From NCBI GenBank assembly GCA_963764385.1, contig CAVXSJ010000001.1, positions 8,582-72,581 of the forward strand: 64,000 nt of DNA, given 5' to 3'. Position 1 is the stretch's first letter, and the number at the start of each line of letters is the position of its first letter. The notes below the pieces were generated by a model. It was not told the DNA's origin and searched no databases. It was given only the letters and a program-made list of their open reading frames with translations. Made by a program: the position numbers and the translations under genes. This document shows, piece by piece, positions 15,939-43,845 of the stretch. This stretch comes from an uncultured Solirubrobacteraceae bacterium (GTDB taxonomy: Bacteria > Actinomycetota > Thermoleophilia > Solirubrobacterales > Solirubrobacteraceae).

Positions 15939-16028
15939 GCGCCCGGATCGGGCCTTCGGCCTCCCCGGATCGCTCACAAGGGGGTTGTGACACCGCTTCG
16001 CTTACCTGCGGCTCGTAAGCTGCGGCGC

Positions 16029-29688: not shown

Positions 29689-31267
29689 CCGCCAGCGACT
29701 CGACCTCGGCCCGGCCGCGCGGGACCCGGAAGCGGGCCAGCGTGGCCGGCGGCGAGGTCGGCTGCTGGGTGGTGCCGACGCCCTTGTAGGTGACCAGCAG
29801 CTCGTCGGGGCGCGCCTCCAGGACGGCGTAGCCCTTCGTGCTCTGGTTTGCGTAGGCGAAGTGGGGGTTGTTGGCGCGCAGCACCGCGTCGGCGGGGATC
29901 GTGCCGATCTCGCGCCCGCCCTCGCCGGTCGTCGTGTCGGCGACGCCCTTGGAGGTGATCGAGCCGCCCACGAACTCGGTCGCCACCGCCGCCGGCTGCC
30001 CGACGCCCTCGCGGCCGCTGGGCGTGACGCGCCCGGCGAAGAAGGTGTGGATGTCGCCGGTGACGAACGTGAGGTCCTTGACGCCACGGTCGCGCACGCG
30101 CTCGAGCACCTCGCGCCGCTCGGCGGCGTAGCCGTCCCACTGGTCGGGGTTGATGGCGCTGCCGGCCGGGAGGTCGAGGGACATGATCATCGCCTGGTTG
30201 CCGACGATCTTCCACGTCGCCTTGGAGGCGGCCAGCGAGGACACCAGCCACTCCTTCTGGGCGCCGCCGAGCATCGTGCGGCCCGGCGCCGAGCCGTCGG
30301 CGCACGGGATGAACAGCTGGTCGCCGCACGGCTGGTCGTCGCGGTAGGAGCGCTGGTCGAGCAGGAACACCTCGGCGTTGGCGCCGAACCGCTGGGCGCC
30401 GTAGATCCGGTCCCGGTCGCCGCTGACGCGTAAGCGCGGGTGGTGCTCGAAGAAGGCCTGGAAGCCGGCCGCGCGGCGCTCGAGGAACGACGCGCGCGGG
30501 TTGTCGGTGGCGCTGCCGGGCTGGTCGCGCGCCCAGTTGTCCTCGACCTCGTGGTCGTCCCAGATCGCGAGCATCGGGTGCGCGGCGCGGACCGCCCGCA
30601 GGTCGGCGTCGGAGTGGTACAGCGCGTACTTGTCGCGGTACTCCGGGAGCGTCTGCACCTCGGCGTCGCCGTTGGCGCCGGTCGAGTCCTTGCGGACCGC
30701 CGCGTCGTCGTAGTGCTTCTCGTAGATGTAGTCGCCGAGGCAGATCACGAAGTCGAGGTCTTGCTCCTTCGCCAGCGCGGCGTGCGGCGTGTAGTAGCCG
30801 GACTCGTAGTCCTGGCAGGAGAAGAAGGCGATCCGGACGGGCTCGCGCGAGTCGGCGGGCCGCGCGGTGGCGAAGCGGCCGACCGGGCCGTCGACGGTGC
30901 AGGAGACGAAGCGGTAGTAGTAGCGCTCGCCCGGCTTGAGGACCTCGTGCTCGGCACGGTGGTGGACCGCGTAGCCGTTGCCGCCCGCCGCGGTGGCGGA
31001 CTTGCGGTAGACGACGCGGCGGAAGTCGGCGTCGGGAGAGATCTCCACCTGCAGCCGCGCATCGCGTGTGAGGCCCTCGACCTTGCTCCACAGCGTGATC
31101 CCGTTGGTGGTCGGCTGGCCGGAGGCCACCCCCTGGGGGAACGCGACGTCGCGCGCCAGAGGGAGTTGGAGGCGGCGGCTGAAGGCCGCCTTCGGGAGCA
31201 GCAGGGTGCCGGCTCCGGCGGCGGCGGTCGCGAGGAAGGCGCGGCGGTTCACAGGCTGGTTGCGCAT
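29627..31267 (-). CDS. phoD: Tat-exported alkaline phosphatase D
   Basis: Twin-arginine signal (NRRAFLATAAAGAGTLL). PhoD motifs: FPQGVASGQPT, IAFFSCQDY, VICLGDYIYE, IWDDHEVEDN, LGGAQKEWL, NPDQWDGY, FVTGDIH. The 3' tail overlaps the convergent CoA-ligase gene by 62 nt. Confidence 0.88.
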   Translation of the reverse strand: MRNQPVNRRAFLATAAAGAGTLLLPKAAFSRRLQLPLARDVAFPQGVASGQPTTNGITLWSKVEGLTRDARLQVEISPDADFRRVVYRKSATAAGGNGYAVHHRAEHEVLKPGERYYYRFVSCTVDGPVGRFATARPADSREPVRIAFFSCQDYESGYYTPHAALAKEQDLDFVICLGDYIYEKHYDDAAVRKDSTGANGDAEVQTLPEYRDKYALYHSDADLRAVRAAHPMLAIWDDHEVEDNWARDQPGSATDNPRASFLERRAAGFQAFFEHHPRLRVSGDRDRIYGAQRFGANAEVFLLDQRSYRDDQPCGDQLFIPCADGSAPGRTMLGGAQKEWLVSSLAASKATWKIVGNQAMIMSLDLPAGSAINPDQWDGYAAERREVLERVRDRGVKDLTFVTGDIHTFFAGRVTPSGREGVGQPAAVATEFVGGSITSKGVADTTTGEGGREIGTIPADAVLRANNPHFAYANQSTKGYAVLEARPDELLVTYKGVGTTQQPTSPPATLARFRVPRGRAEVESLAATSRTSTRSRRRTSRRSGAA

Positions 31268-31300
31268 CGGTACAGCAGTTTGCCGGATACTGGACCGAAC

Positions 31301-32047
31301 ATGGTGCGGTTCCTGTTACTTCTGCTCGCCCTTGCCCTCGGGGCGGCGCTCGCGCCGTCCGCGGGTGCGCAGGACGTGTGCGCCGCCCAGGACCCGGTCG
31401 ACCCGCGCGAGCGCTGCGACTCGGGCGGCGGTGCGGGGGCGTGTGTGGCGACCTCGGGCTTCAAGTCGGTCTCAGCACGGGCGCGCGGCCGCGGGCTGCG
31501 GCTCGGCTTCACGCGGCGGCGGGCGCGACGGGTCACCGTCGACGTGTTCCAGCACTCGGCCGGGCGGCGCGTGCTCGGCAACCGGCGGGTCGCGCACTTC
31601 ACGGGGCGCCGGGCGGGGGTCGTGTGGGGCGGGCGGCGCGGGAGCGCCGGGCTGTACTCGGCGCGGTTCACGATGAAGCTGCCCGGCGGGCTGCGCGACG
31701 TGCGCCGCGTGGCGCTGCGGCGCGCCGGTGGGCGGTTCACGAGGCGGCCGTCCTTCTACCGGCGCGCCTCGTGCGGAGCCGTCACCTCCTTCAAGCTCGA
31801 GCGGCCGGCCTTCGCCCGGCGCGGCTTGGGGATCGCGTTCCGGCTCGGTGGTCCGGCACGGGTCACGGTGACGGTGCGCCGGGGCGGGAAGACGGTCCGG
31901 CGCTTCAAGGCGCGCTCTGGCGTGGCGGGCCGGACCTATCGGCTGCGGCTGCGCTCGGCGCGGCGCGGCGACCACGTGGTGCGGCTGAGCGCGCGCCTTG
32001 CCTCGGGCCGCGTCGTGCGAGCGAGGCTCACCTCGAGGCGCCTGTGA
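31301..32047 (+). CDS. Secreted arginine-rich protein with two tandem Ig/FlgD-Ig-like beta-sandwich modules; function unknown
   Basis: Signal peptide MVRFLLLLLALALGAALAPSAGA, a Cys-containing linker, then two repeats of about 100 aa (RVTVDVFQHSAGRRVL...; RVTVTVRRGGKTVRRF...RGDHVVRLSA). It is collinear with the module at 33490-34144. Confidence 0.55.
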   Translation: MVRFLLLLLALALGAALAPSAGAQDVCAAQDPVDPRERCDSGGGAGACVATSGFKSVSARARGRGLRLGFTRRRARRVTVDVFQHSAGRRVLGNRRVAHFTGRRAGVVWGGRRGSAGLYSARFTMKLPGGLRDVRRVALRRAGGRFTRRPSFYRRASCGAVTSFKLERPAFARRGLGIAFRLGGPARVTVTVRRGGKTVRRFKARSGVAGRTYRLRLRSARRGDHVVRLSARLASGRVVRARLTSRRL

Positions 32048-34144
32048 GGGTCCTGCTCGCGCTGCTGGCGCTGGCGGTCCTCGCCCCGGCGGCGGCCGCG
32101 CAGGTGCCGGCCGACGCCGGCGGGCCGCTCGTCTACGTGTTCGTGCTCGACGGCCTGGACGGCGACAAGGTCGACGAGGGCAAGGCGCCGTTCCTGAGCT
32201 CGCTGCTGGCGGGCGAGGGCGCGCATGCCACGTACTACCGCGAGTCGCGCTCGGTGATGGTGGCCGAGACCAACCCGAACCACACCGCGATGGCCACCGG
32301 CGCGTTCGGCGACCGTTCGGGGATCCCCGGCAACGCGTTCGCCGTCTACGACGCGGCGGCCCAGGGCGCCTGCCCGACCGACGGCGCGACGGCGGGCGCC
32401 CCGGCCGAGACCGACGGCCAGGCCGCGGACTGCGTGCTGGCCGAGAACTTCTTCACCGCCGCGCGGCGCCAGGCGGGCGCTGAGGCGATCACCACGGCGG
32501 GGATCTTCGGCAAGCCCAAGCTCGCGCGGCTGTTCTCCACCCGCCGGGCGGTGGCCGCTCCCGCGTTCGACGCGGACTACCTGTGGACGCCGTGCGAGGC
32601 GCCGGGCGACGACACGCCGTACTGCAAGACCGTCCCGCTGAACCCGGCGACGATGTACGCGGCGTCGGACGGGATCGTGATGGACGAGGTGCTGCGCAGC
32701 GTGCGCGAGGGCGTGGACGCCGACGGCGCCCGCAAGCGGCCGAACCTGACGTTCGTGAACCTCCCGCAGATCGATTCGGCGGGCCACGCCACCGGCACCG
32801 GGGCCGCCTACGACGCGGCGATCGGGCTCGCCGACGACGAGCTGCGGCGGTTCGCCGACCAGCAGCGCTCGCTCGGGCTGTGGGAGCGCACGGTGATGCT
32901 CGTCGTCTCCGACCACTCGATGGACACGACGGGGGACAAGGCCTCGCTCGACCTGCGCTTCCGCGCGGCGGGCATCGCCTCCGGCGACTACCTGATCGTG
33001 CAGAACGGGTCCGTCGACATGGTCTACCTGACCGACCGCGGGCGGGCCGATCGCGACGCGCTGCTCGCGAAGCTGCGCGCGGCGGCGCTCCCCGTGGCGG
33101 ACGAGGCGCTCTATCGCGTGGGCAACCCCGCCGACGGTGGCGCGGCGCACACACTGGACGCGGTGCATCCGGGGTGGCGGATCGCGGGGGAGCGCTCCGG
33201 CGACCTGTTCGTGACACGGGGGGCGGGCGCCGCGTGGTCGGATCCGGCCAACCCGCTGACGGGCAACCACGGCGGGCCGCTGACGAGCGACAACACGTTC
33301 GCGGTGATCTCCGGCGGCGAGCAGGTGCGCCAGCAGTCGCTCTCCGGCGTCGTAGGCGCGCGGTTCGACGACACGCTGGCCAACCCGGGGCAGGCGCAGA
33401 ACGTCGACGTCGCGCCGACCGTGCTCGCGCTGCTGGGACGCGGGGCGCCGGCCGACAGCGAGGGACGGGTGCTCGGCGAGGCGTTCGCGCCGGGGGTGCT
33501 CCCGACGGCGCGGGGGCGGGGGCGGTTCGTCGGCGTGCGTCGCGACGCCGGCTTTGCGATCGCTGCGGGTGCGCGCGGTACGGCGCGGGCTGCGGATCGG
33601 CTTCCGTCGCACGGGGTCCGCACGGGTGTCCGTCGACGTCGTGCGGGCCTCCCGTGGCCGGCGGGTCGTCTCGCGCGTGGTGGCGCGCTTCCCGCGTCGT
33701 GCGCGGGGGTTCGTGTGGCGCGGGCGGGGAGCGGGGCGCGGCGAGTACGTGGTGCGCCTGCGCACGCGCGATGCCTCGGGCGCGCGGGTGACGCGGCGGG
33801 TGGCGGTCCACCGCGGTGCGCGCCGGTTCTCGCGCCGCCCGGCGATCGAGCGCTCGACCCGATGCGGCGTCCTGCGCTCGCTGCGGCTGTCGCGGCCGGT
33901 GTTCGGCTCGCGGCGGGCGGCCCGGGTGTCGTTCTCGCTGCGCCGGCCGGCTGTGGGCTCGGCGACTGTGTTGCGGCGCGGCGGCGTCGTGCGCCGCTTC
34001 CCCGCGCGTTCGCGGCGGGCGGGGAAGGTCCACCGGCTGCGGATCGCAGGCGGCTCGCTGAGGCGGGGCCACTACCGGATTCGGTTGCGTTTGCGTGCTG
34101 ACGGGCGGACCGCGACGTACGCGGTCACCGCGCGCCGCCTCTGA
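32044..34144 (+). CDS. Secreted nucleotide pyrophosphatase/phosphodiesterase (alkaline-phosphatase superfamily); its C-terminal Arg-rich double beta-sandwich module is in a different frame (shift about 33490-33525)
   Basis: GTG 32044 overlaps the upstream stop and is followed by the signal peptide VRVLLALLALAVLAPAAAAQ. NPP motifs: VFVLDGLDG, ETNPNHTAMATG, PQIDSAGHATG, VSDHSM, GNHGG. As written, the catalytic frame runs on to 34101 as Arg/Ala-rich text. The frame of ORF 33554..34144, open from about 33420, encodes GGGGGSSACVATPALRSLRVRAVRRGLRIGF..., a paralogue of 31301-32047. Confidence 0.7.
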
Positions 34145-34269
34145 CGCAGTCGCCGCGTTCCCGCCCGCGGCCTGTGAACTCGGCCGCCGCGATGACCGTT
34201 GGGGCGGCCAGGCGGGCAGACTTGCGCGGCGCTCTCGACGCCCGCCGGCGCGCGAGGTACCGTCGCCCC

Positions 34270-34557
34270 ATGGATCGCCTCCAGCGCGAGCGCGGCGAGC
34301 ACGCCGCCGATCTCCACGGTGAAGAGGAAATCGCGCCGGTTCCGGCGCAGGCCGGCTCGCTCGCGTGGGCCTCGGCCGTCGGCAACCAGGCAGTGCAGCG
34401 CCTCGCCCGCGAGGCGATGCCCGAGACCGAGATGGAGGCAGAGGAGGACGCGGCGCCGCCGGAGGTCGAGGCGATGACCGCGGCCGGGATCGGCCCTGCC
34501 GAGGCTGCCGGCCTCGCGGCCGTGGACGACCTCGCGGAGGACGACCTCCCCGGCTAG
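34270..34557 (+). CDS. Small acidic protein carrying an 'A-x-GNQAVQRL' box; possible partner of the downstream toxin
   Basis: The ORF is open from 34174; ATG 34270 gives 95 aa. The box SLAWASAVGNQAVQRLARE resembles the box at the N-terminus of the next gene. The stop lies 4 nt before the next ATG. The start is uncertain. Confidence 0.4.
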   Translation: MDRLQRERGEHAADLHGEEEIAPVPAQAGSLAWASAVGNQAVQRLAREAMPETEMEAEEDAAPPEVEAMTAAGIGPAEAAGLAAVDDLAEDDLPG

Positions 34558-34561
34558 CCGC

Positions 34562-37500
34562 ATGGCAGCGGCCCGGGAACGCGAACAGGAGGAGCAGGCC
34601 GAGGCCGCCGCTCCCGAGGCGGCCGCCCAAGCGCCCGTCTCGGTGCCGGTCGGCCCGATGAGCCCTGCCGGGGTGATGGCGCTCCAGCGCCTCGTCGGCA
34701 ACTCCGCCGTCACGGGCATGCTCGACGAGCGCCGTGAGCCAGGTGCCGCCGAGTCGGCGCACGGCGCCGCGGAGTCGCAGGCGGCAAACGGCGCCGCTGC
34801 GCCAGGGCAGGCCGCGGAGGCCCGTGCGGGGGTCGGCCAGGCCGCGCAGGGTGGCGCCTACGGCGCCGGGGTCGGCCAGGCTGCCGAGGCCGATGCCGGC
34901 GGTGGGGCCGGCCAGGGCGCGCAGGGCGGCGCCGCGGCCGGGGGCGCCGCGCAGCGGCCGGGCGCGGGCGGCGTGTTGGAGGCCTTTGAGGCGATCGTGC
35001 GCGGGACCGCCGGCGCGACGCCCGCCGAGGGGTCGTCGATGCAGGACTTCCTCAGGAGGCTGGCGGGTGGCGCCGCGGGCGGGGCTGGTGCGGGCGCCGA
35101 GGGCGCGGCGGCGGGCGGCGCCGCGGGTGCGGGTGCGGCTGGTGCGACCGCGGAGGGCGCGGTGGCGGGCGGCGCTGCGGGCGCGGGTGGTGCGACCGCG
35201 GAGGGCGCGGTGGCGGGCGGCGCTGCGGGTGCGGGCGCGGCGTGGTGCGACCGCGGAGGGCGCGGTGGCGGGCGGCGCTGCGGGCGCGGCTGGAGCGGCC
35301 GCCGAGGGCGCGGCGGCTGCGGCCGCGGGCGGTGCGGCCGGTGCCGCGGCGGCGGGCGGGGCGGCCGGTGCCGCGGCGGCGGGCGGTGGTGTCGGCGCGG
35401 TCGCCGCGAGCGCCAAGGCCGGGGCCGGTGCGGCCGCCCAGGAGGGTGCGGCGGCCGGAGCGGCGCCGGCAGGCGGCGCGGGCGCGGCGGCGGCCGGGGG
35501 AGCCCAGCAGGCCGCGGGAGGCGGCGGAGGGGCCGCCGCCGGTGGCTCCGCCGCGGCGGCGGAAGCCGCTCCCGCGCGCGCCCCCGAGGAGGACCCGAAC
35601 TTCCAGGCCATGAAGGGCAAGGCCGGAGCGGCCGGCGCCAAGGCCAAGGCCCACCAGCCGGCCGCCGCGGGCGCCTCCGCCGCTCAGGCCGCCGCCCAGC
35701 CGCCCGGCAACGACATCGCCGGCCAGGCGGCGGGCCACCAGGTCGAGGAGATGGGCAAGCAGCAGCCCGGCACCTTCGACCGCAAGGCCTTCATCGCCGC
35801 GGTCAAGAAGGCGATCGACGCGGCGGCGCCCAAGAACCTCGAGGAGGCCGACGACTTCAAGGACTCCGGCAAGGCCGGCAAGGTCAAGGACGAGGTCGGC
35901 GGCCTCGTCAAGGGCGGCAAGAAGGACTCCGAGAAGGACATCAAGCAGGCCACCGACGCGCCACCCGACGCCTCCAAGGCCACGCCCAAGCAGGTCGTCC
36001 CGCTCTCACCCGACGAGCCAGGCGCCGCCACCCCCTCCGTGGGCGCCGCCTCCTCGATGCCGGGTCCGAGGCCCGCGGAGGAGACCGACCTGTCCGCCGG
36101 TCCCGCCGAGGTCGACCAGCAGATGGTCGACGCCGAGGTCACCGACGAGCAGCTCCAGAAGTCCAACGAGCCCGAGTTCACGGGCGCCCTCGACGCCCGC
36201 CAGGAGGCCAAGGAGCACGCCACCACGGCGCCGATGGAGTACCGCGCCCAGGAGAGCGAGATCCTCGAGAAGGGCCGCGAGGAGGCGACCGCCGCCGAGG
36301 GCATGCACCTCAAGGGCATGCAGGGCGCCAAGCTCGAGACGATCGCCAAGGTCGCCGGCGAGAAGGGGGAGACCAAGAGCCAGGACGAGTCCAAGCGCGC
36401 GAAGGTCGCCGCCGACATCCAGGCGATCTACGACAAGACCAAGACCGACGTCACGGGGATCCTCACCGCGCTCGACGGCAAGGTCGACGCGACCTTCACC
36501 CGCGGCGAGGCCAGCGCGCGCCAGCAGTTCGAGGACTACGTCGGCACGAAGATGGCCGCCTACAAGGAGGACCGCTACAGCGGTTGGTTCGGCGGCGCCC
36601 GGTGGCTCAAGGACAAGCTCTTCGGAATGCCCGACGCGGTCAACGCCTTCTACTCAGACGGCCGCGACGCGTACATGACGACGATGGACGGCGTGATCGG
36701 CGAAGTCGCCGACCTCGTCGGCAACGAGCTCAACGCGGCGCGCCTGAAGATCGCCGCGGGCCGCGCCGAGGTCCACGACTACGTGACGCAGCTCCCCCAG
36801 GACCTGCAGAAGGTGGGCAAGGACGCGGAGGGCAAGCTCGACCAGCAGTGGGACGACCTCTCCAGCGACGTCGACAACAAGCAGGACGCGATGGTCGACA
36901 CGATCGCGCAGAAGTACGTCGCCTCGCGCGACGCGCTCAACGACCGCATCGAGGAGCTGAAGGCGGCCAACAAGGGCCTGGTCGCGAAGGCGCTGGACGC
37001 CGTCGTCGGCGTCATCAAGACGATCCTCAAGCTCAAGGACATGCTGCTCAACGTCCTGGCCAAGGCCGCGGACGTGATCGGCGACATCATCACGGACCCG
37101 ATCGGCTTCCTGGGCAACCTGATCGGCGGCATCAAGGACGGCCTCAGCCGGTTCGTCGACAACATCGGGACCCACTTGCAGAACGGCCTGATGGGCTGGC
37201 TGTTCGGCGCGCTCGGCGACGCCGGCATCAAGATGCCCAAGACCTTCGACCTGGCCGGGATCTTCGAGCTCGTGATGGACGTGCTCGGCTTCAGCTACCG
37301 GAGCATCCGCGGGCGGGTCGCGAAGATCGTCGGCGAGCCCGTCGTCGAGAAGATGGAGTCGACCGTCGACGTCTTCAAGAAGCTCGCCACCGAGGGCGTC
37401 GCGGGGCTGTGGGAGTGGATCAAGGACAAGATCGGCGACTTCCAGGACCTCGTCCTCGGAGGGATCAAGGACTTCATCATCGAGCGCGTGATCAAGGGCG

Positions 37501-38579
37501 GGATCACGTGGCTGCTCTCGCTCCTGAACCCCGCCGCGGCGTTCATCAAGGCGTGCCAGGCGATCTACAACATCGTCATGTTCATCGTCGAGCGCGGCTC
37601 GCAGATCATGGAGTTCGTCAACTCCGTGCTGGACTCGATCGGCGCCATCGCGCGAGGCCAGCTCAGCGTCGCCGCCGAGAAGGTCGAGAGCGCCCTCGCC
37701 AAGGCCCTCCCGCTCGCGATCTCCTTCCTCGCCAGCCTGCTCAACCTCGGCGGCATCACCGACAAGATCCGCGAGGGCATCGACAAGGTCCGCAAGCCGA
37801 TCGAGAAGGCGGTCGACTTCGTCGTCCTCGGCGCCGTCAAGGGCTTCAAGAAGCTGTTCGGCGGCGCGGTCGGGTGGGTCAAGGACAAGGCCGCGAAGGG
37901 CAAGCAGTGGGCGACCGACAAGGCGACCGCCGCCAAGGAGTGGGGCGCCGGCAAGGTCAAGGGGATCAAGGACCGCTTCACCGGCGGGGGAGACGAGCCG
38001 GCGACCGAGGCCGAGCAGGCACCGGACGGGGACGAGCGCACTCCGGACCAGAAGAAGGCCGACGTCGACGCCGCCGTCGCCGAGGCGGACGGGCTCGAGG
38101 AGGCGCCGGAGGCGAGCACGGATTCCGTGCGCGACCGGCTGCCCGAGATTCAGGAGCGCTATCGCCTGCGCAGCCTCGTCCTGGTCGAGGACAGCGACAC
38201 CGAGTTCCACGTCGAGGGCAAGGTCAACCCAGAGAAGAAGGGCAAGCAGTGGCGGCGGCCGGCCGACCTGCCCGCATGGGGGAAACTGACCGTCAGGGAG
38301 GACTGGCAGCACATCTATGACGGCCACTGGGAGGGCACTCCGGTCCAGACGCGGGGCAACAACGACGTCTTCTGGGGACTGACCAAGGAGCAAATCAAGC
38401 GGGTCGTTCGCGGCGCCTATGACAACATCGCCTCGAAGCTGCAGACGCAGGGTCCTCGCATCAGGGTTCGCGGGGAGTACGACGGCTGGACCGTTGAGTT
38501 CTGGATCAACAAGGAAGACAAGGTGCTCGAGTCGGCCTATCCGATCGGCACGGGCGGCGGCGAGCGGGGTGAGCCGTGA
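34562..38579 (+). CDS. Giant polymorphic-toxin-like protein (about 1,338 aa once one extra base near 35242 is removed) with an EndoU-like C-terminal module
   Basis: The N-terminus (frame of ORF 34562) carries MALQRLVGNSAVTGML, then an Ala/Gly low-complexity tract. From 35244 the frame of ORF 34734 carries a Lys/Glu-rich coiled coil. It then carries an amphipathic/hydrophobic helical core (DPIGFLGNLIGGIKDGLSRFVDNIGTHLQNGLMGWLFGAL...LPLAISFLASLLNLGG). A distinct terminal module follows (WQHIYDGHWEG...VFWGLTKEQIKRVV...WTVEFWINKEDKVLESAYPIG). Confidence 0.7.
35141..35291 (+). repeat. Three copies of a 48-nt tandem repeat (ATAEGAVAGGAAGAG) with a 7-nt spacer that breaks the frame
   Basis: Copies lie at 35141-35188, 35189-35236 and 35244-35291. 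The junction GCGGCGT (35237-35243) is 7 nt long, so it breaks the reading frame. The sequence just upstream of copy 1 (...GCGGCT-GGTGCGACC) suggests a 6-nt GCGGCT spacer was expected there. Confidence 0.85.
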
Positions 38580-38992
38580 GCTTCACGATCGTGGTCGGCC
38601 CAGGTGCGGCGGCGACGCGCGACTGTCATCTCGAGGTGGACGGCACGGCGTTCCCAGCGGACCCATGGCGAGACCGGCCGCTCGTGATCGTCGGTTGGTG
38701 GACGGAGAACCATGTCGAGATGCGCCGGACCGGCAATCGGGTGCGCAACTCGTTCATGGAAGGGCCCTACGAGTTCACGGTCACGCCGGAGGGAGCGACG
38801 CTCACGCTCGAGTTGATCGCGCGGCGGCGCGACGCCGACGAGACCCTCGGCCGGCACACGGTCGCCGTCCAGGACTACGAGTCGGCGCTCCTCGGGGCCG
38901 CGCAGTCGGTCCTGGACACCGCCTCGGCGGTGGCCGGCGACCACGACCTCGACACGCTGCGGGCGAACGTAAGCACGCTGAGAACGCCCTGA
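38576..38992 (+). CDS. Candidate cognate immunity protein (138 aa, no recognisable family)
   Basis: GTGA start/stop overlap with the toxin gene, a small cytoplasmic protein with no signal peptide. The position and size are typical of immunity genes. Confidence 0.5.
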   Translation: MSFTIVVGPGAAATRDCHLEVDGTAFPADPWRDRPLVIVGWWTENHVEMRRTGNRVRNSFMEGPYEFTVTPEGATLTLELIARRRDADETLGRHTVAVQDYESALLGAAQSVLDTASAVAGDHDLDTLRANVSTLRTP

Positions 38993-39012: not shown

Positions 39013-40281
39013 ATGGCCTCCAAGCACCACGTGATGGTCGGCGGCGTCCAGGTCGGCGGCGGCGCGCCCGTCGCCGTCCAGACGATGACGAAGACCGAGA
39101 CGGCGAACCTCTCCGCCACGATGGACCAGATCCGGACCGTGGCGGAGGCCGGGGCCGACATCGTGCGCGTGGCGGTGCCGCGCGAGAAGGACGTGGAGGC
39201 GCTCAAGACGATCGTGGTCGAGTCGCCGATCCCGATCATCGCCGACATCCACTTCAACCACACGCTGGCGCTGAAGTCGATCGACGCCGGGGCGCACTGC
39301 ATCCGCCTCAACCCGGGCAACATCGGCGGCCCGGAGAAGGTCGCGGAGGTGGCCGACAAGGCCCGCACGGCCGGCACCCCGATGCGCATCGGGGTCAACT
39401 CGGGCAGCCTCCCCAAGCACCTGCACGCGCTGGAGCGCGAGAACCCCGTGGAGGCGCTGGTGACCGCCGGCGTGGAGTTCGTCGAGCTGATGGAGCGCCT
39501 GGACTTCACCGACTTCAAGGTGTCGATCAAGTCGACCAACGTGCCGAACACGATCGCCGCGAACCGCCTGCTCAGCGAGAGGATCGACTACCCGCTGCAC
39601 CTCGGGATCACCGAGGCGGGCACGAAGTGGTCGGGCTCGCTGAAGTCCGCCGTCGGCCTCGGCACGCTGCTCGCCGACGGGATCGGCGACACGATCCGGA
39701 TCTCGCTCTCCACCTTCCACGCGGAGGAGGAGGTCAAGGTCGCCTGGGAGATCCTCAAGGCGCTGAAGCTGCGCGAGAAGGGTCCGGTCCTGATCGCCTG
39801 CCCGACGTGCGGGCGGCTGCAGTTCGACATGGACACCGTGGTGGCCGACATCGAGGACCGCCTGCGCGCCTACGAGGACCCGGTCGAGGTCGCCGTGCTG
39901 GGCTGCGCGGTCAACGGCATCGGCGAGGCCTCGCACGCCGACTTCGGCATCACCGGCGCCAAGAACGAGGGCCTGATCTTCTCCCGCGGCAAGGCGCTCA
40001 AGAAGGTCCCGCAGGAGCAGCTCGTCGATGCGCTGTTCCTCGAGATCGACAAGTACGCCAAGACCAAGCGGATCGACGTGGACGCCGCCGAGCAGCAGGC
40101 CGGCGCCGCGTGGCTGGAGCGCATCGAGGAGGAGAACGCCGGCGAGCTGACGCCCGAGCGCCTCGCGAAGCTCGAGGCCGAGTCCGCCCGCGCCGGCGCC
40201 GACGCGATGGACGAGGTGCTCAAGCCGCGCCTCGACGAGGCCGACTCGCCCACCGACGGGCGTCGCTTCACCCGCGCCTGA
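39013..40281 (+). CDS. ispG: 4-hydroxy-3-methylbut-2-en-1-yl diphosphate synthase
   Basis: VQVGGGAPVAVQTMT, IVRVAVP, IPIIADIHF, IRLNPGNIG, MRIGVNSGSL, HLGITEAG, IACPTCGR, AVLGCAVNGIGEA. It has an extra C-terminal tail of about 60 aa. Confidence 0.93.
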   Translation: MASKHHVMVGGVQVGGGAPVAVQTMTKTETANLSATMDQIRTVAEAGADIVRVAVPREKDVEALKTIVVESPIPIIADIHFNHTLALKSIDAGAHCIRLNPGNIGGPEKVAEVADKARTAGTPMRIGVNSGSLPKHLHALERENPVEALVTAGVEFVELMERLDFTDFKVSIKSTNVPNTIAANRLLSERIDYPLHLGITEAGTKWSGSLKSAVGLGTLLADGIGDTIRISLSTFHAEEEVKVAWEILKALKLREKGPVLIACPTCGRLQFDMDTVVADIEDRLRAYEDPVEVAVLGCAVNGIGEASHADFGITGAKNEGLIFSRGKALKKVPQEQLVDALFLEIDKYAKTKRIDVDAAEQQAGAAWLERIEEENAGELTPERLAKLEAESARAGADAMDEVLKPRLDEADSPTDGRRFTRA

Positions 40282-41638
40282 GCGCGTCGCCGAGCGCCGC
40301 GGCCGCTGCGCGCAGCCCCGGCTCGCCGATGCGCGCGTAGCCGAGGATCAACGCGGGCTCCTGCTCGCTCGCCATCACGTGCTCGGCCATCGTGGCGAGT
40401 CCCACGCCGGCGTCGACCGCGGCCGCATACGCCGCGCGCTCGTCGTCTTCCAGGCCCAGCACGAGGTGCAGGCCCGCCGCCACGCCTCCGATCCGCGGCG
40501 CGGGCACGTGCTCGTGCAGCGCGGCCACGAGCGTGTCGCGCCGCCGCCGGTACTCGGCGCGGGTGCGGCGCAGGTGGCGGTCGTACTCGCCGCGCTCGAC
40601 GAACCGCGCGAGCGCGAGCTGGTCGAACGCCGCGGTCCCGAGGTCGCTGCGCCGGCGCGCCTCGGCGACCGGCTCGCGGAGGCGCGGGGGCAGCACCGCC
40701 CAGCCCAGCCGCAGCGCGGGGCTGAGCGTCTTGGACACCGAGCCGCAGTAGACGACGCGATCGGGATCGAGGCCCTGGAGCGCTCCGACGGGGTGGCGGT
40801 CGTAGCGGTACTCGGCGTCGTAGTCGTCCTCGAGGATCGTCGCGTCGTGGCGCCGCGCCCAGTCGACGAGGGCGGCGCGACGGTCCGGGTGCAGCACCGC
40901 GCCGGTCGGGAATTGATGCGCGGGCGTGACCAGGACGGCGTCCGCCGCGGGCATGCCGTCGACCACCAGCCCGTCTCCGTCCACCGGCGCCGCCACCGGC
41001 TCCAGGCCCGCGTCGCGCAGCACGGCGCGCGTGCCCGCGTGGGAGGGGTCCTCGACCGCGACGGTCCGGCCGCCCGCGGCGTGGAGTGCGCGCCCGGCCA
41101 GCGCGAGCGCGTGGCCGACGCCGGCGCACACGACGACGCCGCCCGGGCCGGTGCGCACGCCGCGGACGCGCGCGAGGTACGCGGCGAGGGTGGCGCGCAG
41201 GGCGGGGACGCCGAGCACGTCGGGGTACTCCAGCGCGGCCGGGTCGGCGTCGCGCAGCACCGCGCGGAGCGCCGCCGCCCAGCCCGTGCGCGGGAACAGC
41301 AGCGGGTCGGGCCCGCCCGGGCGCAGGTCGTGGCGCGGCCGCAACGGAGCGGAGCCGTCGGTACCGGCCGGCGGATCGGCCGGCACCCGCGCGACGCGGT
41401 GGGCGGCGCCGGGACGCACGTCGAGCCAGCCCTCGGCGCGCAGCTGCGCGTAGGCCTCCACCACGACGCCGCGCGACACGCCGAGGTCGGCGGCCAGCCC
41501 TCGCGTCGACGGCAGGAGGTGCCCCGCCTCCAGGCGCCCCGAGCGGATCGCCTCCCGCAGGCCTGCCTCCAGGCGGCCGTGCAGCGATCCGTCGCCGAGG
41601 AGGAGCGGGCGCGCCGAACTGGACCTTTCATCTGCCAT
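40268..41638 (-). CDS. MocR/GabR-type PLP-dependent GntR-family regulator
   Basis: ATG 41638. GntR HTH (LPSTRGLAADLGVSRGVVVEAYAQLRAEGW) plus an aminotransferase fold (TPAHQFPTG, EDDYDAEYRY, YCGSVSKTLSPALRLGW). Confidence 0.85.
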   Translation of the reverse strand: MADERSSSARPLLLGDGSLHGRLEAGLREAIRSGRLEAGHLLPSTRGLAADLGVSRGVVVEAYAQLRAEGWLDVRPGAAHRVARVPADPPAGTDGSAPLRPRHDLRPGGPDPLLFPRTGWAAALRAVLRDADPAALEYPDVLGVPALRATLAAYLARVRGVRTGPGGVVVCAGVGHALALAGRALHAAGGRTVAVEDPSHAGTRAVLRDAGLEPVAAPVDGDGLVVDGMPAADAVLVTPAHQFPTGAVLHPDRRAALVDWARRHDATILEDDYDAEYRYDRHPVGALQGLDPDRVVYCGSVSKTLSPALRLGWAVLPPRLREPVAEARRRSDLGTAAFDQLALARFVERGEYDRHLRRTRAEYRRRRDTLVAALHEHVPAPRIGGVAAGLHLVLGLEDDERAAYAAAVDAGVGLATMAEHVMASEQEPALILGYARIGEPGLRAAAAALGDALRRG

Positions 41639-41686
41639 CAGACTGGACCTTACGCCCGGACCGGTTCGACGAGTACGGTCCGCGGC

Positions 41687-42604
41687 ATGAAGAGCCGGAC
41701 GCTCACGGGATCGGGGCTGGCGGTGCTGGCCTTCATGGCGATCGGCTCGTCCGTCGCCGCCGCCGAGGAGCTCACGCACTACCCGATCGCGGGCGGCCAG
41801 GCGGCGCGCTATGCCGTCGCCGCCGTGCTCCTGCTCGTGATCGTCCGCGGCCGGCTGCGCCGCCCCTCTATGCGCGAGCTGGGCCAGCTCGTCGCGCTCT
41901 CGGCCACCGGGCTCGTGCTGTTCAACGTGCTGCTGCTGGAGGCCGTCCGCCGCGCGGACGCGGGCAGCGTGGGCGTGATCGTCGGCGCCGTGCCGGTCGT
42001 GCTGGTGATCGTCGTGCCGCTGCTCGGCCGCGAGCGCATCCGGCCGGCGCTGCTGGCCGCTGCCGTCGCGGTCGCCCTCGGCGCCGCGCTCGTGCAGGCC
42101 GCGGGCGGGCGGATGCCCGCCGACGCGCTGCTGCTCTCGCTCGGCGTGCTCGCCTGCGAGGCCTGCTTCGGGCTGCTCGCGCGGCCGCTGATCCCCGCCT
42201 TCGGGCCCGCGGGCGTGTCCGCGTGGATCGTGCTGCTGGCGGTGCCCATGCTCGTTGTCATCGGGCTCGCCGCCGACGGCTCCGAGGCGCTGGCGGTCCC
42301 GACCGCCCGCGAGGCGCTCGCACTCGCCTACATGGCGGCCGTGGTCACAGCCGGCGGCTTCGTCGCCTGGTACGGCGCGATCGCCCGCCTCGGCGTGGAG
42401 CGCGCGGGGCTGTTCTCCGGCGTGCTGCCCGTGACCGCGCTGTTCACCGGGGCGCTGCTGGGGCACGCCGAGGTCACGCCCCAGCGGATCGCGGGCATCG
42501 CCGTGGTGGCCGCCGGGATCACCGCGGGGCTGCTGGCGGCCCAGCGTCCGGTGCGCCCCCGGCGCGGCGAGGCGCGCGCCAGCGAGGTGCCCGTCCACGT
42601 ATAG
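41687..42604 (+). CDS. EamA/DMT-family transporter
   Basis: Ten predicted TM helices in two EamA-like halves. Divergent from the MocR regulator. Confidence 0.75.
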   Translation: MKSRTLTGSGLAVLAFMAIGSSVAAAEELTHYPIAGGQAARYAVAAVLLLVIVRGRLRRPSMRELGQLVALSATGLVLFNVLLLEAVRRADAGSVGVIVGAVPVVLVIVVPLLGRERIRPALLAAAVAVALGAALVQAAGGRMPADALLLSLGVLACEACFGLLARPLIPAFGPAGVSAWIVLLAVPMLVVIGLAADGSEALAVPTAREALALAYMAAVVTAGGFVAWYGAIARLGVERAGLFSGVLPVTALFTGALLGHAEVTPQRIAGIAVVAAGITAGLLAAQRPVRPRRGEARASEVPVHV

Positions 42605-42615
42605 GGTCCGCGGCC

Positions 42616-43845
42616 ATGACGGCCAGGGAGATGCTCGAGGCCTACGCCGCAGGCACGTTGTCGCCGGTCGAGGTCGTCGCCGACCTCGCGGCGCGGATCG
42701 AGGCGGACGAGCACGGGGTGTTCTGGGCGCTGTGCCTGGACCGCGCCGCCGAGGAGGCGCGCGCCGCCGAGGCCGCCTGGCGCGGCGACACCGCACGCCC
42801 CCTGGAGGGCGTCCCGCTCGCGGTCAAGGACCTGTTCGATACGGAGGGCGTGGAGACGACCTACGGCTCCGCCATGTACCGCGGGCACGTCCCCACCCGC
42901 GACGCCGAGGCCGTGCGGCGCTGCCGGGCCGCGGGAGCGATCGTGCTCGGCAAGACCGCCACCCACGAGTTCGCGTGGGGCTACAGCTCGATCAACGACG
43001 CGATGGGCACCGTGCGCAACCCGCACGATCCGCAGCGGGTGGCAGGCGGCTCCAGCGGCGGGTCGGCGGCCGCGCTGGCGGCCGGGCTGGCGCCGCTCGC
43101 GCTGGGCACCGACACCGGGGGCTCGATCCGGGTTCCGAGCTCCTTCTGCCGCGTGTACGGCCTCAAGCCCACCTTCGGCCGCGTGAGCCTCGACGGCGTG
43201 TGGCCGCTGGCGCCCACGCTCGACCACGCCGGGCCGATGGCCACCACGGTCGAGGACCTCGCGCTGCTCTACGCCGTGCTGGCCCGCCCGCTCGAGCCGT
43301 CCGAGCCGCGCCGCGTCGGCATCTGCCCCGACCTCCACCTCGTCCCGTTCGAGCCGCAGATCGAGGCCGCGCTCGCGGCGGCGACCGAGGGCGCCGTCGA
43401 GGTGGCGCTGCCCGAGGCCGCGCTGATCGCCAGCACGTTCCGCGTCGTGCAGTTCGCCGAGGGACACGCGAGCCACCGCCGCGCCGGGCTGTTCCCCGAC
43501 CGCGCCGAGGAGTACGGCGACGACGTCCGCGGCCGGCTCGAGATGGGCGCCGAGGTGACACTCGAGCAGTTCCTCGACGCCTCCATCGCCCGCGAGGCCG
43601 TCCGCGCCGGCTTCACCCGCCTCTTCGACGAGGTCGACGTCGTGATCACCCCGGCGGTGTCCGGCGGGCCGCCGCTGATCGAGGAGGAGCGCGCCACGCA
43701 GGGGCTGCGCACCTCGGTGGGCCCGTGCACGACGCCGCAGGACTTCGCCGGGCTCCCGGCCTGCTCGCTCCCGAACGGGCTGCAGGTGACGGGCCGGCCC
43801 GGCGGCGAGGCGCAGGTCCTCGCCGCCGCCGCGGCGCTGGCCTAG
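42616..43845 (+). CDS. Amidase (amidase-signature family)
   Basis: GVPLAVKDLFDT, GGSSGGSAAALAAGLAPLALGTDTGGSIRVPSSFC, GLKPTFG. Confidence 0.85.
   Translation: MTAREMLEAYAAGTLSPVEVVADLAARIEADEHGVFWALCLDRAAEEARAAEAAWRGDTARPLEGVPLAVKDLFDTEGVETTYGSAMYRGHVPTRDAEAVRRCRAAGAIVLGKTATHEFAWGYSSINDAMGTVRNPHDPQRVAGGSSGGSAAALAAGLAPLALGTDTGGSIRVPSSFCRVYGLKPTFGRVSLDGVWPLAPTLDHAGPMATTVEDLALLYAVLARPLEPSEPRRVGICPDLHLVPFEPQIEAALAAATEGAVEVALPEAALIASTFRVVQFAEGHASHRRAGLFPDRAEEYGDDVRGRLEMGAEVTLEQFLDASIAREAVRAGFTRLFDEVDVVITPAVSGGPPLIEEERATQGLRTSVGPCTTPQDFAGLPACSLPNGLQVTGRPGGEAQVLAAAAALA

What the first reader, a model, noticed from the sequence alone, without database searches (positions are those of the whole stretch)
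34174..38992. Orphan polymorphic-toxin / immunity module with an unusual scaffold and no visible delivery system
Three co-directional, tightly packed genes are present.

1. A small acidic ORF carries the box AWASAVGNQAVQRLA.
2. Four nt later begins a gene of about 1,338 aa whose N-terminus repeats a similar box (MALQRLVGNSAVTGML). It continues through an Ala/Gly tract and a Lys/Glu coiled coil. An amphipathic/hydrophobic helical core of about 250 aa follows (37090-37860: DPIGFLGNLIGGIKDG...WLFGALGDAGIKMP...LAISFLASLLNLGG), then a linker. It ends in a separate module of about 130 aa (about 38150-38576).
3. A 138-aa ORF overlaps the stop by GTGA.

The end module has two His in WQHIYDGHWEG, then FWGLTKEQIKRVV and a terminal ...VLESAYPIG. 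From memory this pattern (H-x-x-x-GH ... F-x-x-W ... aYP) resembles bacterial EndoU-type RNase toxin domains. Also from memory, the 'LQR-x-x-GN-x-A' box and the helical core recur in long DUF4157/eCIS-associated cargo proteins. However, this protein has no HExxH peptidase domain and no LXG, WXG, Rhs or PAAR element, and the window holds no eCIS, T6SS or T7SS genes. How such a protein would be exported, and what the duplicated N-terminal box does, is undescribed as far as I know.
Basis: partly seen in the sequence, partly recalled or inferred. Interest (0 to 1): 0.78.

Follow-up and report, generated by a model that had tools for sequence, protein, structure and literature searches.

The report
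Orphan contractile-injection toxin–immunity cassette
This is a three-gene toxin cassette: a small acidic helper, a 1,338-residue carrier ending in a probable RNA-cutting domain, and its antidote. It belongs to a very large family of cargo proteins of phage-tail-like injection machines, but here it lies far from any such machine and is broken by a one-base frameshift.

Summary
The three co-directional genes exist, but the "1,338-aa gene" is not one ORF. One extra base near 35242, inside a GC-rich Ala/Gly tandem repeat, splits it into two frames.

The polymorphic-toxin reading holds.
- The ~800-aa helical scaffold is found in at least 473 species genomes and 6,021 representative proteins.
- 309 C-terminal tails fall into 122 clusters.
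- This tail links to Pfam EndoU_bacteria through relatives. Its own score is below threshold, and the fold search was inconclusive.
- The 138-aa ORF follows the same tail in five independent loci.

The scaffold is not undescribed and not without a delivery route.
- In 41 of 83 loci the homologous gene lies between a small DUF4157 (eCIS_core) protein and the sheath and tube genes of a contractile injection system (CIS).
- 34 of the 150 best representatives carry DUF4157 fused.
- One relative with the same toxin and immunity pair sits inside such a cluster.
- The N-terminal LQRxxGNxA box heads many cargo families in these loci.
- Solirubrobacter soli carries an orphan copy plus an eCIS operon on another scaffold.

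The window's cassette is therefore a detached CIS cargo module with a DUF4157-less helper. It is closest to the Tme and Sle1/Sle2 effectors described in 2024 and 2026. Whether this genome encodes a CIS could not be tested.

The parts
34270..34557 (+). Small acidic helper protein of 95 aa from ATG 34270 (longest ORF starts at GTG 34174). It has an N-terminal box, an acidic tail and a conserved C-terminus ending ...DDLAEDDLPG. It has no DUF4157 domain.
   Evidence: ORF. It is conserved, with box and tail, in 10 Solirubrobacterales-type loci in all (window, L001, L003, L004, L005, L007, L008, L010, L011, L012). No Pfam, NCBIfam, PHROG or PADLOC hit. It occupies the position held by a small eCIS_core protein in CIS-linked loci.
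34363..34407 (+). Box 1: AWASAVGNQAVQRLA
   Evidence: Coordinates. WASA[VLM]GNxAV is conserved upstream of the big gene's box in nine loci including the window.
34562..38579 (+). Large polymorphic effector gene, 1,338 aa if one base is removed. As sequenced it is two frames: A from 34562 and B to 38579.
   Evidence: GC3 is 0.94 in frame B. Relatives P0002-P0005 (82-87% identical) are intact proteins of 1,387-1,487 aa with the box near residue 36-41.
34676..34723 (+). Box 2: MALQRLVGNSAVTGML (LQRxxGNxAV) at residues 39-54. Inferred to be a CIS cargo recognition or loading tag.
   Evidence: The same box lies at residue ~40-48 in most full-length relatives. N-termini of small DUF4157 proteins match 34658-34741 by tblastn (E = 3e-5). 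The box also heads other cargo-like proteins.
34740..35591 (+). Low-complexity Ala/Gly spacer (45% Ala, 29% Gly). It contains tandem repeats of 48 and 103 nt at 35061-35388.
   Evidence: The spacer is absent in relatives such as P0040, P0076, P0083 and P0084.
35242..35242 (+). One extra base (+1 frameshift) inside the repeat. Either an assembly error or a real inactivating mutation.
   Evidence: Comparable breaks in the tract occur in L003, L005, L010 and L012, and many database gene calls start after the tract.
35592..37094 (+). Conserved helical, coiled-coil region that resembles a tape measure protein.
   Evidence: The AlphaFold2 model is all-alpha, with pLDDT above 90 for residues ~270-470 of the modelled segment. 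PHROG phrog_167 'tail length tape measure protein' E = 7.7e-11 and phrog_4070 E = 5e-5. Foldseek hits are not significant, but the BFVD list is dominated by tape measure proteins.
37095..37860 (+). Hydrophobic, amphipathic helical core. The most hydrophobic segments are residues 977-1010 (a helix-NP-helix hairpin) and 1041-1067. Inferred to insert into membranes.
   Evidence: Hydropathy. These are the most conserved columns of the family alignment. The patterns NPA[ASG]AF[IV]KA and WLFG[TA]L[GA][EDG]A retrieved 473 genomes.
38034..38246 (+). Pre-toxin segment (...RTPDQKKADVDAAV...LPEIQERYRLRSLVLV...FHVEGKVNPEKKGK). The variable tail begins after it.
   Evidence: It is conserved in P0040, P0082 and P0099. 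P0099 carries a different tail after it.
38253..38576 (+). C-terminal toxin module, a probable EndoU-type RNase. H1250 and H1255 lie in WQHIYDGH.
   Evidence: PF14436: E = 0.013 and 16.3 bits for the window; all five related tails hit it, the best at 2.6e-12. BLASTP against the P0082 tail gives E = 1e-14. The same tail follows a PT-HINT domain in P0122. The AlphaFold2 model (pLDDT 71.6) and Foldseek were inconclusive.
38576..38992 (+). 138-aa cognate immunity protein (inferred). Its GTG start overlaps the toxin stop as GTGA.
   Evidence: Nine homologues were found. A homologue lies directly downstream of the same tail in the P0121/P0125 contig (4-nt overlap), in L003, in L002 (E = 3e-11) and in L084/L085 (E = 1e-20).

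Best explanation
The region is a detached cargo cassette of a contractile injection system (CIS/eCIS, PVC-type). It has three parts.

1. A polymorphic effector. Its N-terminal LQRxxGNxA box serves as the recognition or loading tag. Its long helical body, which resembles a tape measure protein, is packed in the tube lumen. After ejection its hydrophobic hairpins insert into the target membrane. Its exchangeable C-terminal module is an EndoU-like RNase that poisons the recipient.
2. A small acidic protein carrying the same kind of box. It takes the place of the DUF4157 (eCIS_core) adaptor that pairs with this effector in CIS clusters, but it has lost the metallopeptidase domain.
3. A translationally coupled immunity protein that protects the producer and its kin.

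In Solirubrobacterales the cassette sits at a fixed chromosomal site next to ispG. The injection machine, if present, is encoded elsewhere. In this assembly the effector gene is interrupted by a +1 frameshift in its Ala/Gly repeat.

Shown:
- family membership
- CIS linkage of the homologues
- polymorphism of the tail
- co-occurrence of toxin and immunity
- conservation of the box

Inferred:
- loading by the box
- membrane insertion by the core
- RNase activity
- existence of a CIS in this genome
For: - Family size: at least 473 species genomes and 6,021 representative proteins at E <= 1e-3.
- CIS linkage: 41 of 83 loci have sheath, tube, spike or gp25 genes within the flanks. Five more have only AAA, DUF4157 or Pvc16_N.
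- Gene order verified by Pfam in L016: Pvc16_N, AAA, eCIS_core, the scaffold gene, sheath, gp19 tube, CIS_tube+LysM, spike, gp25.
- L084 is the closest relative with the same tail (55% identity, 99% coverage). Its order is BTAD, AAA, eCIS_core, effector, immunity homologue, Pvc16_N.
- 34 of the 150 best representatives have DUF4157 fused N-terminally.
- In Solirubrobacteraceae loci L013 and L014 an eCIS_core protein follows directly.
- Box: shared between adaptors and effectors. 117 hits against about 3 expected, all N-terminal, in several cargo families including box+Peptidase_M15_4 and box+SH3.
- Solirubrobacter soli DSM 22325 has an orphan copy on AUIK01000009.1. An eCIS operon is listed on scaffold00004.4 in Geller 2021, supplementary file 4.
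- Resemblance to tape measure proteins: PHROG E = 7.7e-11.
- Polymorphism: 309 tails fall into 122 clusters. Pfam toxin domains in relatives include RNase A-like, Ntox15, Endonuclea_NS_2, deaminases, colicin E3 and EndoU.
- The same site next to ispG holds different tail and immunity pairs in the window, L004 and L006.
- Immunity co-occurrence in five loci.
- Published experiments on proteins of matching architecture and context: Tme (PMC11126660) and Sle1/Sle2 (PMC13277306).
Against: - No CIS gene and no DUF4157 domain occurs in the 64-kb window. The rest of the genome could not be searched.
- All 13 Solirubrobacterales-type loci are orphan. Geller et al. found an eCIS in only 1 of 3 Solirubrobacter genomes.
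- The gene is frameshifted as sequenced, so it may be dead.
- The window's tail scores below Pfam's EndoU cut-off. Only G1254-H1255 of the H-x4-H motif is invariant among the five tails. Foldseek found nothing significant; XendoU ranked 19th at E = 0.8.
- The PHROG tape-measure hit was not reproduced with the L016 homologue, and helical low-complexity proteins give such hits easily.
- Direct sequence comparison with Sle1, Tme or RS14790 was not possible.
Confidence: 0.65

Rival explanations
1. Decaying relic. The frameshift is real, the effector is no longer made in full length, and only the immunity gene (and perhaps the small ORF) still functions, as an orphan immunity locus. This concerns present function, not identity, so it is compatible with the best explanation.
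For: The +1 insertion at ~35242 is present in the deposited assembly, where P0001 is called as 1,104 aa in frame B. The cassette is detached from any CIS.
Against: - Codon bias is intact throughout frame B, with GC3 of 0.94.
- There are no other stops.
- The lesion lies in a GC-rich tandem repeat, where assemblies often fail. L003, L005, L010 and L012 are broken in the same tract, and many gene calls start just after it.
- Close relatives are intact.
Confidence: 0.3
2. Delivery without a CIS. In Solirubrobacterales the scaffold has become a self-contained toxin. It is released by lysis or an unknown route and enters targets through its own membrane-inserting helical core. The small acidic protein acts as chaperone or inhibitor.
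For: - All 13 Solirubrobacterales-type loci lack CIS genes within the fetched flanks.
- 22 of the 83 loci (the window's own included) lack structural CIS genes despite at least 8 kb on each side.
- The helper has lost DUF4157.
- Immunity genes are regularly present here, whereas in many CIS-linked loci the sheath gene follows directly.
Against: - The scaffold, including the N-terminal box, stays 50-65% identical to CIS-embedded copies. That is hard to explain without the same partners.
- There is no signal peptide; the N-terminus is acidic and Ala-rich.
- S. soli does have an eCIS elsewhere.
- eCIS_core proteins lie next to the gene in L013 and L014.
Confidence: 0.12
3. A structural tail component: the tape measure protein of a CIS or prophage, as NCBI's name 'phage tail protein' suggests, rather than a toxin.
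For: NCBI names such as 'phage tail protein [Solirubrobacter soli]'. PHROG tape-measure hits. Position next to sheath and tube genes in relatives.
Against: - The C-termini are hypervariable, carry recognised toxin domains and have cognate immunity genes.
- CIS clusters contain a separate Pro/Ala-rich candidate ruler protein of 704 aa (L016 16049-18163).
- Only 1 of 2.9 million viral contigs encodes a relative, against at least 473 cellular species.
- Scaffold length is nearly constant while N- and C-terminal parts vary.
Confidence: 0.05
4. A type VII (LXG/WXG), type VI (PAAR/Rhs) or umbrella-particle toxin.
For: It is a long helical protein with a C-terminal polymorphic toxin in a Gram-positive lineage. 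An umbrella toxin particle chain appears at rank 27 in Foldseek (E = 2.8, not significant).
Against: No LXG, WXG, PAAR, Rhs or ALF domains were found by Pfam. None of the ten other window genes scanned with Pfam is such a partner, and the conserved neighbours in related loci are CIS genes.
Confidence: 0.02

Closest known systems
Sle1/Sle2 and 'Sle1-type' effectors of actinobacterial CIS (Nagakubo et al. 2026, J Bacteriol, PMC13277306)
   Same: - A large alpha-helical effector with a long coiled coil and remote similarity to tape measure proteins.
- Hydrophobic helices.
- Pairing with a small adjacent protein that binds its N-terminal part.
- A position just upstream of the sheath gene in relatives.
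- Unrelated C-terminal functional domains between species. One of these (M. eburnea RS14790, deaminase-like) is neutralised by the downstream gene.
   Different: - The window's cassette is not next to any CIS.
- Its small partner has no DUF4157 domain.
- The C-terminal module is EndoU-like.
- Sequence homology to Sle1 or RS14790 could not be tested here.
- Sle1 begins MCDRLNQT according to its primers, so it may lack the box.
Tme, the tape measure-related endonuclease effector of the Streptomyces davawensis CIS (Nagakubo et al. 2024, Nat Commun, PMC11126660)
   Same: A CIS cargo with a coiled coil, predicted transmembrane helices, a disordered low-complexity part and a C-terminal nuclease. Its DUF4157 is fused, as in 34 of the 150 representatives of this family.
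   Different: Tme is 2,247 aa with DUF4157 in the same chain and an EndA-like DNase. No immunity gene is described for it. It acts on the producer's own development.
PVC/eCIS-delivered polymorphic toxins marked by the PVC-metallopeptidase (DUF4157, eCIS_core): Zhang et al. 2012 (PMC3482391); Geller et al. 2021 (PMC8213781); Danov et al. 2024 (PMC11297309)
   Same: An N-terminal trafficking part, a long linker and an exchangeable C-terminal toxin. DUF4157 lies in the protein or in the neighbouring gene in relatives.
   Different: Neither the window's proteins nor its neighbours have DUF4157, and the locus is outside any eCIS operon. An adjacent immunity gene is present, which those papers note is often missing.
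Bacterial EndoU nuclease toxins (Pfam PF14436)
   Same: A C-terminal toxin module of ~100 aa with a GH motif and the ...AYP ending, followed by a small immunity gene. The same module is also found on another trafficking scaffold (PT-HINT).
   Different: The window's module scores below the family cut-off. Its catalytic residues are not assigned and its fold is not confirmed.

Membership tests
Polymorphic toxin system (general definition) | A conserved N-terminal or central part combined with many unrelated C-terminal toxin domains | tested here: met
   309 tails fall into 122 BLAST clusters, 79 of them singletons. Pfam toxin domains PF18431, PF15604, PF13930, PF14424, PF14436, PF18785, PF09000 and PF15541 occur in relatives.
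Polymorphic toxin system (general definition) | A cognate immunity gene immediately downstream that co-varies with the toxin domain | tested here: met
   The same tail is followed by a homologue of the 138-aa ORF in five loci. L005 and L007 share another tail and another downstream ORF family. Different pairs occupy the same ispG site.
Polymorphic toxin system (general definition) | The toxin domain is also found on other trafficking scaffolds | tested here: met
   P0122 has a PT-HINT domain (PF07591) followed by the same tail, 64% identical.
eCIS/PVC-associated toxin (EAT; Zhang 2012, Geller 2021) | DUF4157 (PVC-metallopeptidase, HExxH) in the protein or in an adjacent gene | tested here: not met
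   There is no PF13699 hit and no HExxH in the effector or the small ORF. My DUF4157 HMM gives no domain-level hit either. The feature is met in homologues: an adjacent gene in L016 and L084 and a fusion in 34 of 150 representatives.
eCIS/PVC-associated toxin (EAT; Zhang 2012, Geller 2021) | Encoded in or next to an eCIS operon | tested here: not met
   No sheath, tube, spike, gp25, AAA or Pvc16_N gene occurs in the 64 kb. The feature is met in 41 of 83 related loci.
eCIS/PVC-associated toxin (EAT; Zhang 2012, Geller 2021) | Physically loaded into and ejected from the particle | not testable with these tools
   This needs particle purification and mass spectrometry.
Sle1-type / Tme-like CIS effector related to tape measure proteins (Nagakubo 2024, 2026) | A long coiled-coil region with remote homology to phage tape measure proteins | tested here: inconclusive
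   phrog_167 E = 7.7e-11 and phrog_4070 E = 5e-5 for the window, but no such hit for the L016 homologue. The model is all-alpha. Foldseek hits are not significant.
Sle1-type / Tme-like CIS effector related to tape measure proteins (Nagakubo 2024, 2026) | A small DUF4157 partner gene adjacent, and a position just upstream of the sheath gene | tested here: not met
   Not met in the window: the partner lacks DUF4157 and there is no sheath gene. Met in homologues.
Sle1-type / Tme-like CIS effector related to tape measure proteins (Nagakubo 2024, 2026) | Sequence homology to Sle1 (SLIV_17115), RS14790 or Tme (BN159_7576) | not tested
Matching the published primers to the fetched loci gave only noise.
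Bacterial EndoU nuclease (PF14436) | Score at or above Pfam's gathering threshold | tested here: not met
   The window scores 16.3 bits against a 25.3-bit cut-off (E = 0.013). The homologous P0082 tail hits at 2.6e-12 and is 34% identical to the window's tail (E = 1e-14).
Bacterial EndoU nuclease (PF14436) | EndoU fold and catalytic His/His/Lys | tested here: inconclusive
   The AlphaFold2 model has pLDDT 71.6 with the putative active-site loop below 50. Foldseek against the PDB gave no hit at E <= 0.001. Only G-H1255 is invariant.
Phage tail tape measure protein (structural) | Encoded in phage genomes among tail genes | tested here: not met
   One locus in 2.9 million viral contigs. That locus has a CIS-type AAA gene next to it.

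The most novel reading that the evidence does not exclude
In Solirubrobacterales this scaffold may have become independent of any contractile injection system. On this reading it is a self-delivering toxin whose tape measure-like hydrophobic core carries the RNase across the target membrane. The DUF4157-less acidic mini-protein would act as its chaperone or release factor.

A milder version is more likely, at roughly 0.45. On that reading the LQRxxGNxA box is a sequence-defined, trans-acting loading tag. It lets cassettes scattered around the chromosome feed a distant CIS. This would contrast with published statements that eCIS loading signals share no conserved sequence.
Probability: 0.1. Interest if true: 0.8.

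Novelty: new variant of a known kind. Interest (0 to 1): 0.42.

Why it matters
**What the result changes.** It removes the apparent mystery. The protein is not an export-less toxin. It belongs to what may be the most widespread cargo family of Gram-positive and Chloroflexota contractile injection systems. That family has no Pfam or NCBIfam model and is named 'hypothetical' or 'phage tail protein' in databases.

**Three points that could be useful if they hold.**
- A strongly conserved N-terminal box (LQRxxGNxA) shared by adaptors and by several unrelated cargo families would be a sequence-defined loading tag. Recent eCIS papers report no conserved signal sequence. Such a tag would make cargo prediction and engineering directly testable in these phyla.
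- Orphan cassettes at a fixed housekeeping site, with swapped toxin and immunity pairs, show that CIS cargo can evolve like T6SS or CDI orphan modules. Their regular immunity genes argue for use between bacteria.
- A helper that keeps the box and acidic tail but has lost the metallopeptidase domain suggests what the minimal adaptor function of DUF4157 proteins is.

Tried and rejected
- Looking up the window's own IspG and P0001 in the contig index found nothing on record.
- NCBIfam on all three proteins gave nothing, so the source of NCBI's 'phage tail protein' name remains unexplained.
- A word-indexed search with the tail alone found only two relatives.
- PDB sequence searches with a full-length and a tail-only profile gave no meaningful hit.
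- Foldseek of the tail model against the PDB, and of the scaffold model against the PDB and BFVD, gave nothing at E <= 0.001.
- My first scaffold alignment, A1, was made in the wrong frame and was discarded.
- Matching the published RS14790, RS14785, RS24535 and Sle1 primers to the fetched loci gave only chance matches.
- A cluster look-up for the organism name returned no names.
- PADLOC gave only a weak, insignificant ZorA match (E = 0.0092) to the helical region, and nothing for the other two proteins, so this is not a known defence system.
- I considered and rejected T7SS/LXG, T6SS/PAAR-Rhs and umbrella toxins (no domains, no partners), and a bona fide phage tape measure protein (near absence from viral contigs).
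- Programmed frameshifting in the Ala/Gly tract was not pursued. Close relatives are in frame, so nothing supports it.

Full report
**1. What is in the sequence**

The window has about 74% G+C. Three co-directional, tightly packed genes are present.

- A small ORF ends at 34557. Its longest form starts at GTG 34174, but comparison with relatives favours ATG 34270, which gives 95 aa with 22 acidic and 5 basic residues. It carries AWASAVGNQAVQRLA at 34363-34407.
- Four bases later, at ATG 34562, a second gene opens with MALQRLVGNSAVTGML at 34676-34723.
- A 138-aa ORF at 38576-38992 overlaps the stop of the large gene as GTGA.
- ispG starts 20 nt further on.

The large gene is not a single ORF. 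The N-terminal part is in one frame and everything from the Ala/Gly tract onwards is in another (34734-38579). The break lies inside a GC-rich tandem repeat (periods of 48 and 103 nt, 35061-35388). There GCGGCGTGGTGCG has one base more than the GCGGCTGGTGCG of the first repeat copy. Removing base ~35242 gives exactly 1,338 aa. The database copy of this protein (P0001, 100% identical) was called as 1,104 aa in the second frame, so the lesion is in the public assembly.

Close relatives (P0002-P0005, 82-87% identical) are intact. Several other assemblies are broken in the same tract, and many gene calls start just after it. I cannot decide between an assembly error and a recent inactivating mutation.

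**2. Anatomy of the large protein** (numbering of the corrected 1,338 aa)

- Residues 1-38: acidic and Ala-rich. No signal peptide is apparent from composition.
- Residues 39-54: the box.
- Residues ~60-343: Ala/Gly spacer, absent in many relatives.
- Residues 344-844: conserved helical region. The AlphaFold2 model shows very long helices, locally with pLDDT above 90.
- Residues 845-1095: the most conserved part. It is rich in Gly, Leu and Ile, with a hydrophobic helix-NP-helix hairpin (977-1010) and a further hydrophobic helix (1041-1067).
- A Lys-rich linker follows.
- Residues ~1158-1228: a conserved pre-toxin segment ending ...HVEGKVNPEKKGK.
- The last ~108 residues form the variable tail.

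Pfam and NCBIfam find nothing in the full protein.

**3. It is a polymorphic toxin with an immunity gene**

Family size. The scaffold query found 913 relatives among the 8,000 candidates scored. Relatives cover about 80% of the query, that is, everything except the tail. A profile search of 1.84 billion representatives gave 6,021 hits at E <= 1e-3 and 4,135 at E <= 1e-30. A scan of one genome per species found at least 473 genomes across Actinomycetota, Chloroflexota and Dormibacterota.

Tail diversity. Relatives carry RNase A-like, Ntox15, non-specific endonuclease, deaminase, colicin E3 and EndoU domains. 309 tails fall into 122 BLAST clusters.

The window's tail. It is shared with P0040, P0121, P0191, L003, more distantly with P0082, and with P0122, where it follows a PT-HINT domain.

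EndoU assignment.
- The window's tail alone gives PF14436 at E = 0.013 (16.3 bits, below the 25.3-bit cut-off).
- All five related tails hit the family, the best at 2.6e-12.
- The window's tail matches the P0082 tail at E = 1e-14.
- The model (pLDDT 71.6) found nothing significant in the PDB; XendoU ranked 19th at E = 0.8.
- EndoU-type RNase is therefore probable but not established.

Immunity. The 138-aa ORF has nine homologues. A homologue lies directly after the same tail in the P0121/P0125 contig (4-nt overlap), in L003, in L002 (E = 3e-11) and in L084/L085 (E = 1e-20).

**4. The scaffold is CIS cargo**

I clustered the ORFs of the 83 loci. The recurrent neighbours are a contractile injection system. 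Pfam confirmed the order in L016 (Nocardioides panacisoli): Pvc16_N, AAA ATPase, small eCIS_core (DUF4157) protein, the scaffold gene, sheath, gp19 tube, CIS_tube+LysM, spike, gp25.

- 41 loci have structural CIS genes within the flanks, and five more have only AAA, DUF4157 or Pvc16_N.
- 22 loci have no structural CIS gene despite at least 8 kb on each side.
- 34 of the 150 best representatives have DUF4157 fused to the N-terminus of the same scaffold.
- The relative that shares both the full architecture and the toxin-immunity pair with the window (P0040, locus L084) lies in the order BTAD regulator, AAA, eCIS_core, effector, immunity, Pvc16_N.
- The family is almost absent from viral contigs, with one locus in 2.9 million.
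- CIS clusters hold a separate Pro/Ala-rich candidate ruler protein. The protein is therefore cargo, not a phage or CIS tape measure, although PHROG models of tape measure proteins match the window's helical region (E = 7.7e-11).

**5. The duplicated box**

In CIS-linked loci the small DUF4157 protein starts with ...LGLQRAAGNAA... followed by SPVHDV and the HExxH domain. The effector starts with ...LALQRxAGNAAV.... In nine Solirubrobacterales-type loci including the window the upstream gene has WASA[VLM]GNxAV, and the effector's box follows 277-352 nt later.

A box pattern hits 117 times in 1,613 ORFs of these loci, against about 3 expected from composition. All hits lie within the first ~165 residues. 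They comprise 61 effectors, 33 DUF4157 adaptors and 23 others. The others include:
- a ~250-aa family in nine loci;
- a protein ending in Peptidase_M15_4;
- a protein ending in an SH3 domain.

The box is therefore an N-terminal signature common to several cargo-like families. That it is a recognition or loading tag is my inference. It fits the published findings that Sle2 binds the N-terminal part of Sle1 and the tube initiator (PMC13277306), and that N-terminal sequences are required for eCIS loading (10.64898/2026.05.27.728243; PMC11297309). Those papers state that no conserved sequence was found. I found no description of this box in the papers I read.

**6. The Solirubrobacterales variant**

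The window's helper has the box, an acidic tail and a conserved C-terminus (...D-L-x-E-x-x-LPE), but no metallopeptidase domain. It is conserved in ten loci in all.

The cassette lies inside a housekeeping cluster:
- rpsB
- dxr
- M50 protease
- AMP-binding enzyme
- PhoD and a phosphodiesterase
- the cassette
- ispG
- proS
.

L004, L006 and L011 have the cassette next to ispG too. L004 and L011 lack the 4.5-kb PhoD and phosphodiesterase segment. The window, L004 and L006 carry different tail and immunity pairs, while L011's tail could not be classified.

No CIS gene is in the window. Three observations still point to a CIS elsewhere.
- In the Solirubrobacteraceae loci L013 and L014 a large eCIS_core protein follows directly.
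- Solirubrobacter soli DSM 22325 has an orphan copy on AUIK01000009.1.
- The same strain has an eCIS operon listed on scaffold00004.4 by Geller et al., in supplementary file 4.

**7. Comparison with what is known**

- PVC/eCIS-type polymorphic toxins marked by the PVC-metallopeptidase were defined by Zhang et al. 2012 (PMC3482391) and extended by Geller 2021 and Danov 2024.
- Tme is a large helical effector with tape measure similarity, fused DUF4157 and a C-terminal nuclease. It was shown to be CIS-associated (PMC11126660).
- Sle1/Sle2 is a helical effector plus a small DUF4157 partner next to the sheath gene. Sle1-type relatives have unrelated C-termini, one forming a toxin-antitoxin pair (PMC13277306).
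- The present family matches these in architecture and context. Direct homology to those proteins could not be tested.
- The window's cassette fails the two locus-level criteria (DUF4157 and CIS adjacency) but belongs by sequence to a family that meets them.

**8. Verdict**

The toxin and immunity reading is right. The claim of an undescribed scaffold with no delivery route is not. This is a detached cargo cassette of a known kind of system with a DUF4157-less helper. It is of moderate interest, mainly for the conserved box and the orphan organisation.

Noticed in passing
window 35061-35388 (frameshift at ~35242); also L003, L005, L010, L012: The GC-rich Ala/Gly tandem-repeat tract breaks the reading frame in several independent assemblies. 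Many database gene calls start just after it (MKGKAGAAG...). The cause is either systematic assembly error or a hypermutable tract.
   Followed up: partly
window 18744-48192: The cassette is inserted in a conserved housekeeping cluster: rpsB, dxr, M50 protease, AMP-binding enzyme, PhoD, phosphodiesterase, the cassette, ispG, amidase, proS. In L004 and L011 the AMP-binding gene is followed directly by the cassette, so the 4.5-kb segment with PhoD and the phosphodiesterase (29680-34170) is absent there.
   Followed up: partly
window 33554-34144 and the C-terminal part of the frame 30440-32047: Two Arg-rich segments of ~100-190 aa share a pattern (...RVxVDV....GRRV...RV..F.GRR.G..W.GR...). One lies after the phosphodiesterase gene and the other in the stretch between the PhoD gene (minus strand) and the phosphodiesterase gene. 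Their nature is unknown, and they may be out-of-frame artefacts of the high G+C content.
   Followed up: no
L016 16049-18163; L084 3689-4549: CIS clusters encode a Pro/Ala-rich 704-aa protein with about eight [IV]QR motifs and a C-terminal LDRERRG. DUF4157 adaptors carry repeated S[LV]QRA motifs in their acidic tails. This short QR motif echoes the LQRxxGNxA box and may be a common docking peptide.
   Followed up: no
L066 13210-13959, L070 14372-15121, L073 14106-14870 and six more loci: A family of ~250-aa proteins (my ORF cluster 22) carries the same N-terminal box and lies downstream of the effector gene. It has no Pfam domain.
   Followed up: partly
L002 13913-17095 (-); L035 6093-8477: Other large proteins headed by the box end in Peptidase_M15_4 (a cell-wall hydrolase) or in an SH3_3 domain. 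They are further candidate cargo of the same systems.
   Followed up: partly
L013 3598-6816; L014 12889-17751; L080 ~15500-16330: In Solirubrobacteraceae a second, distantly related (~35% identical) helical-core protein follows the scaffold gene. Those of L013 and L014 have an internal eCIS_core domain, and L014's also has an Endonuclea_NS_2 tail. L080's was seen only as a similarity match. Cargo genes are therefore arrayed in tandem.
   Followed up: partly
CIS-linked loci, e.g. L016 13312/13436, L035, L044, L083: In many CIS-embedded copies the sheath gene follows the effector within 100-350 nt, with no room for an immunity gene. Orphan copies usually have one. This may reflect different targets (self or distant organisms versus kin).
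   Followed up: no
window 40268-42796: Long ORFs overlap on both strands. A MocR-like GntR/aminotransferase is encoded on the minus strand and an EamA-type transporter on the plus strand. This is typical of high-G+C sequence and not a feature in itself.
   Followed up: no
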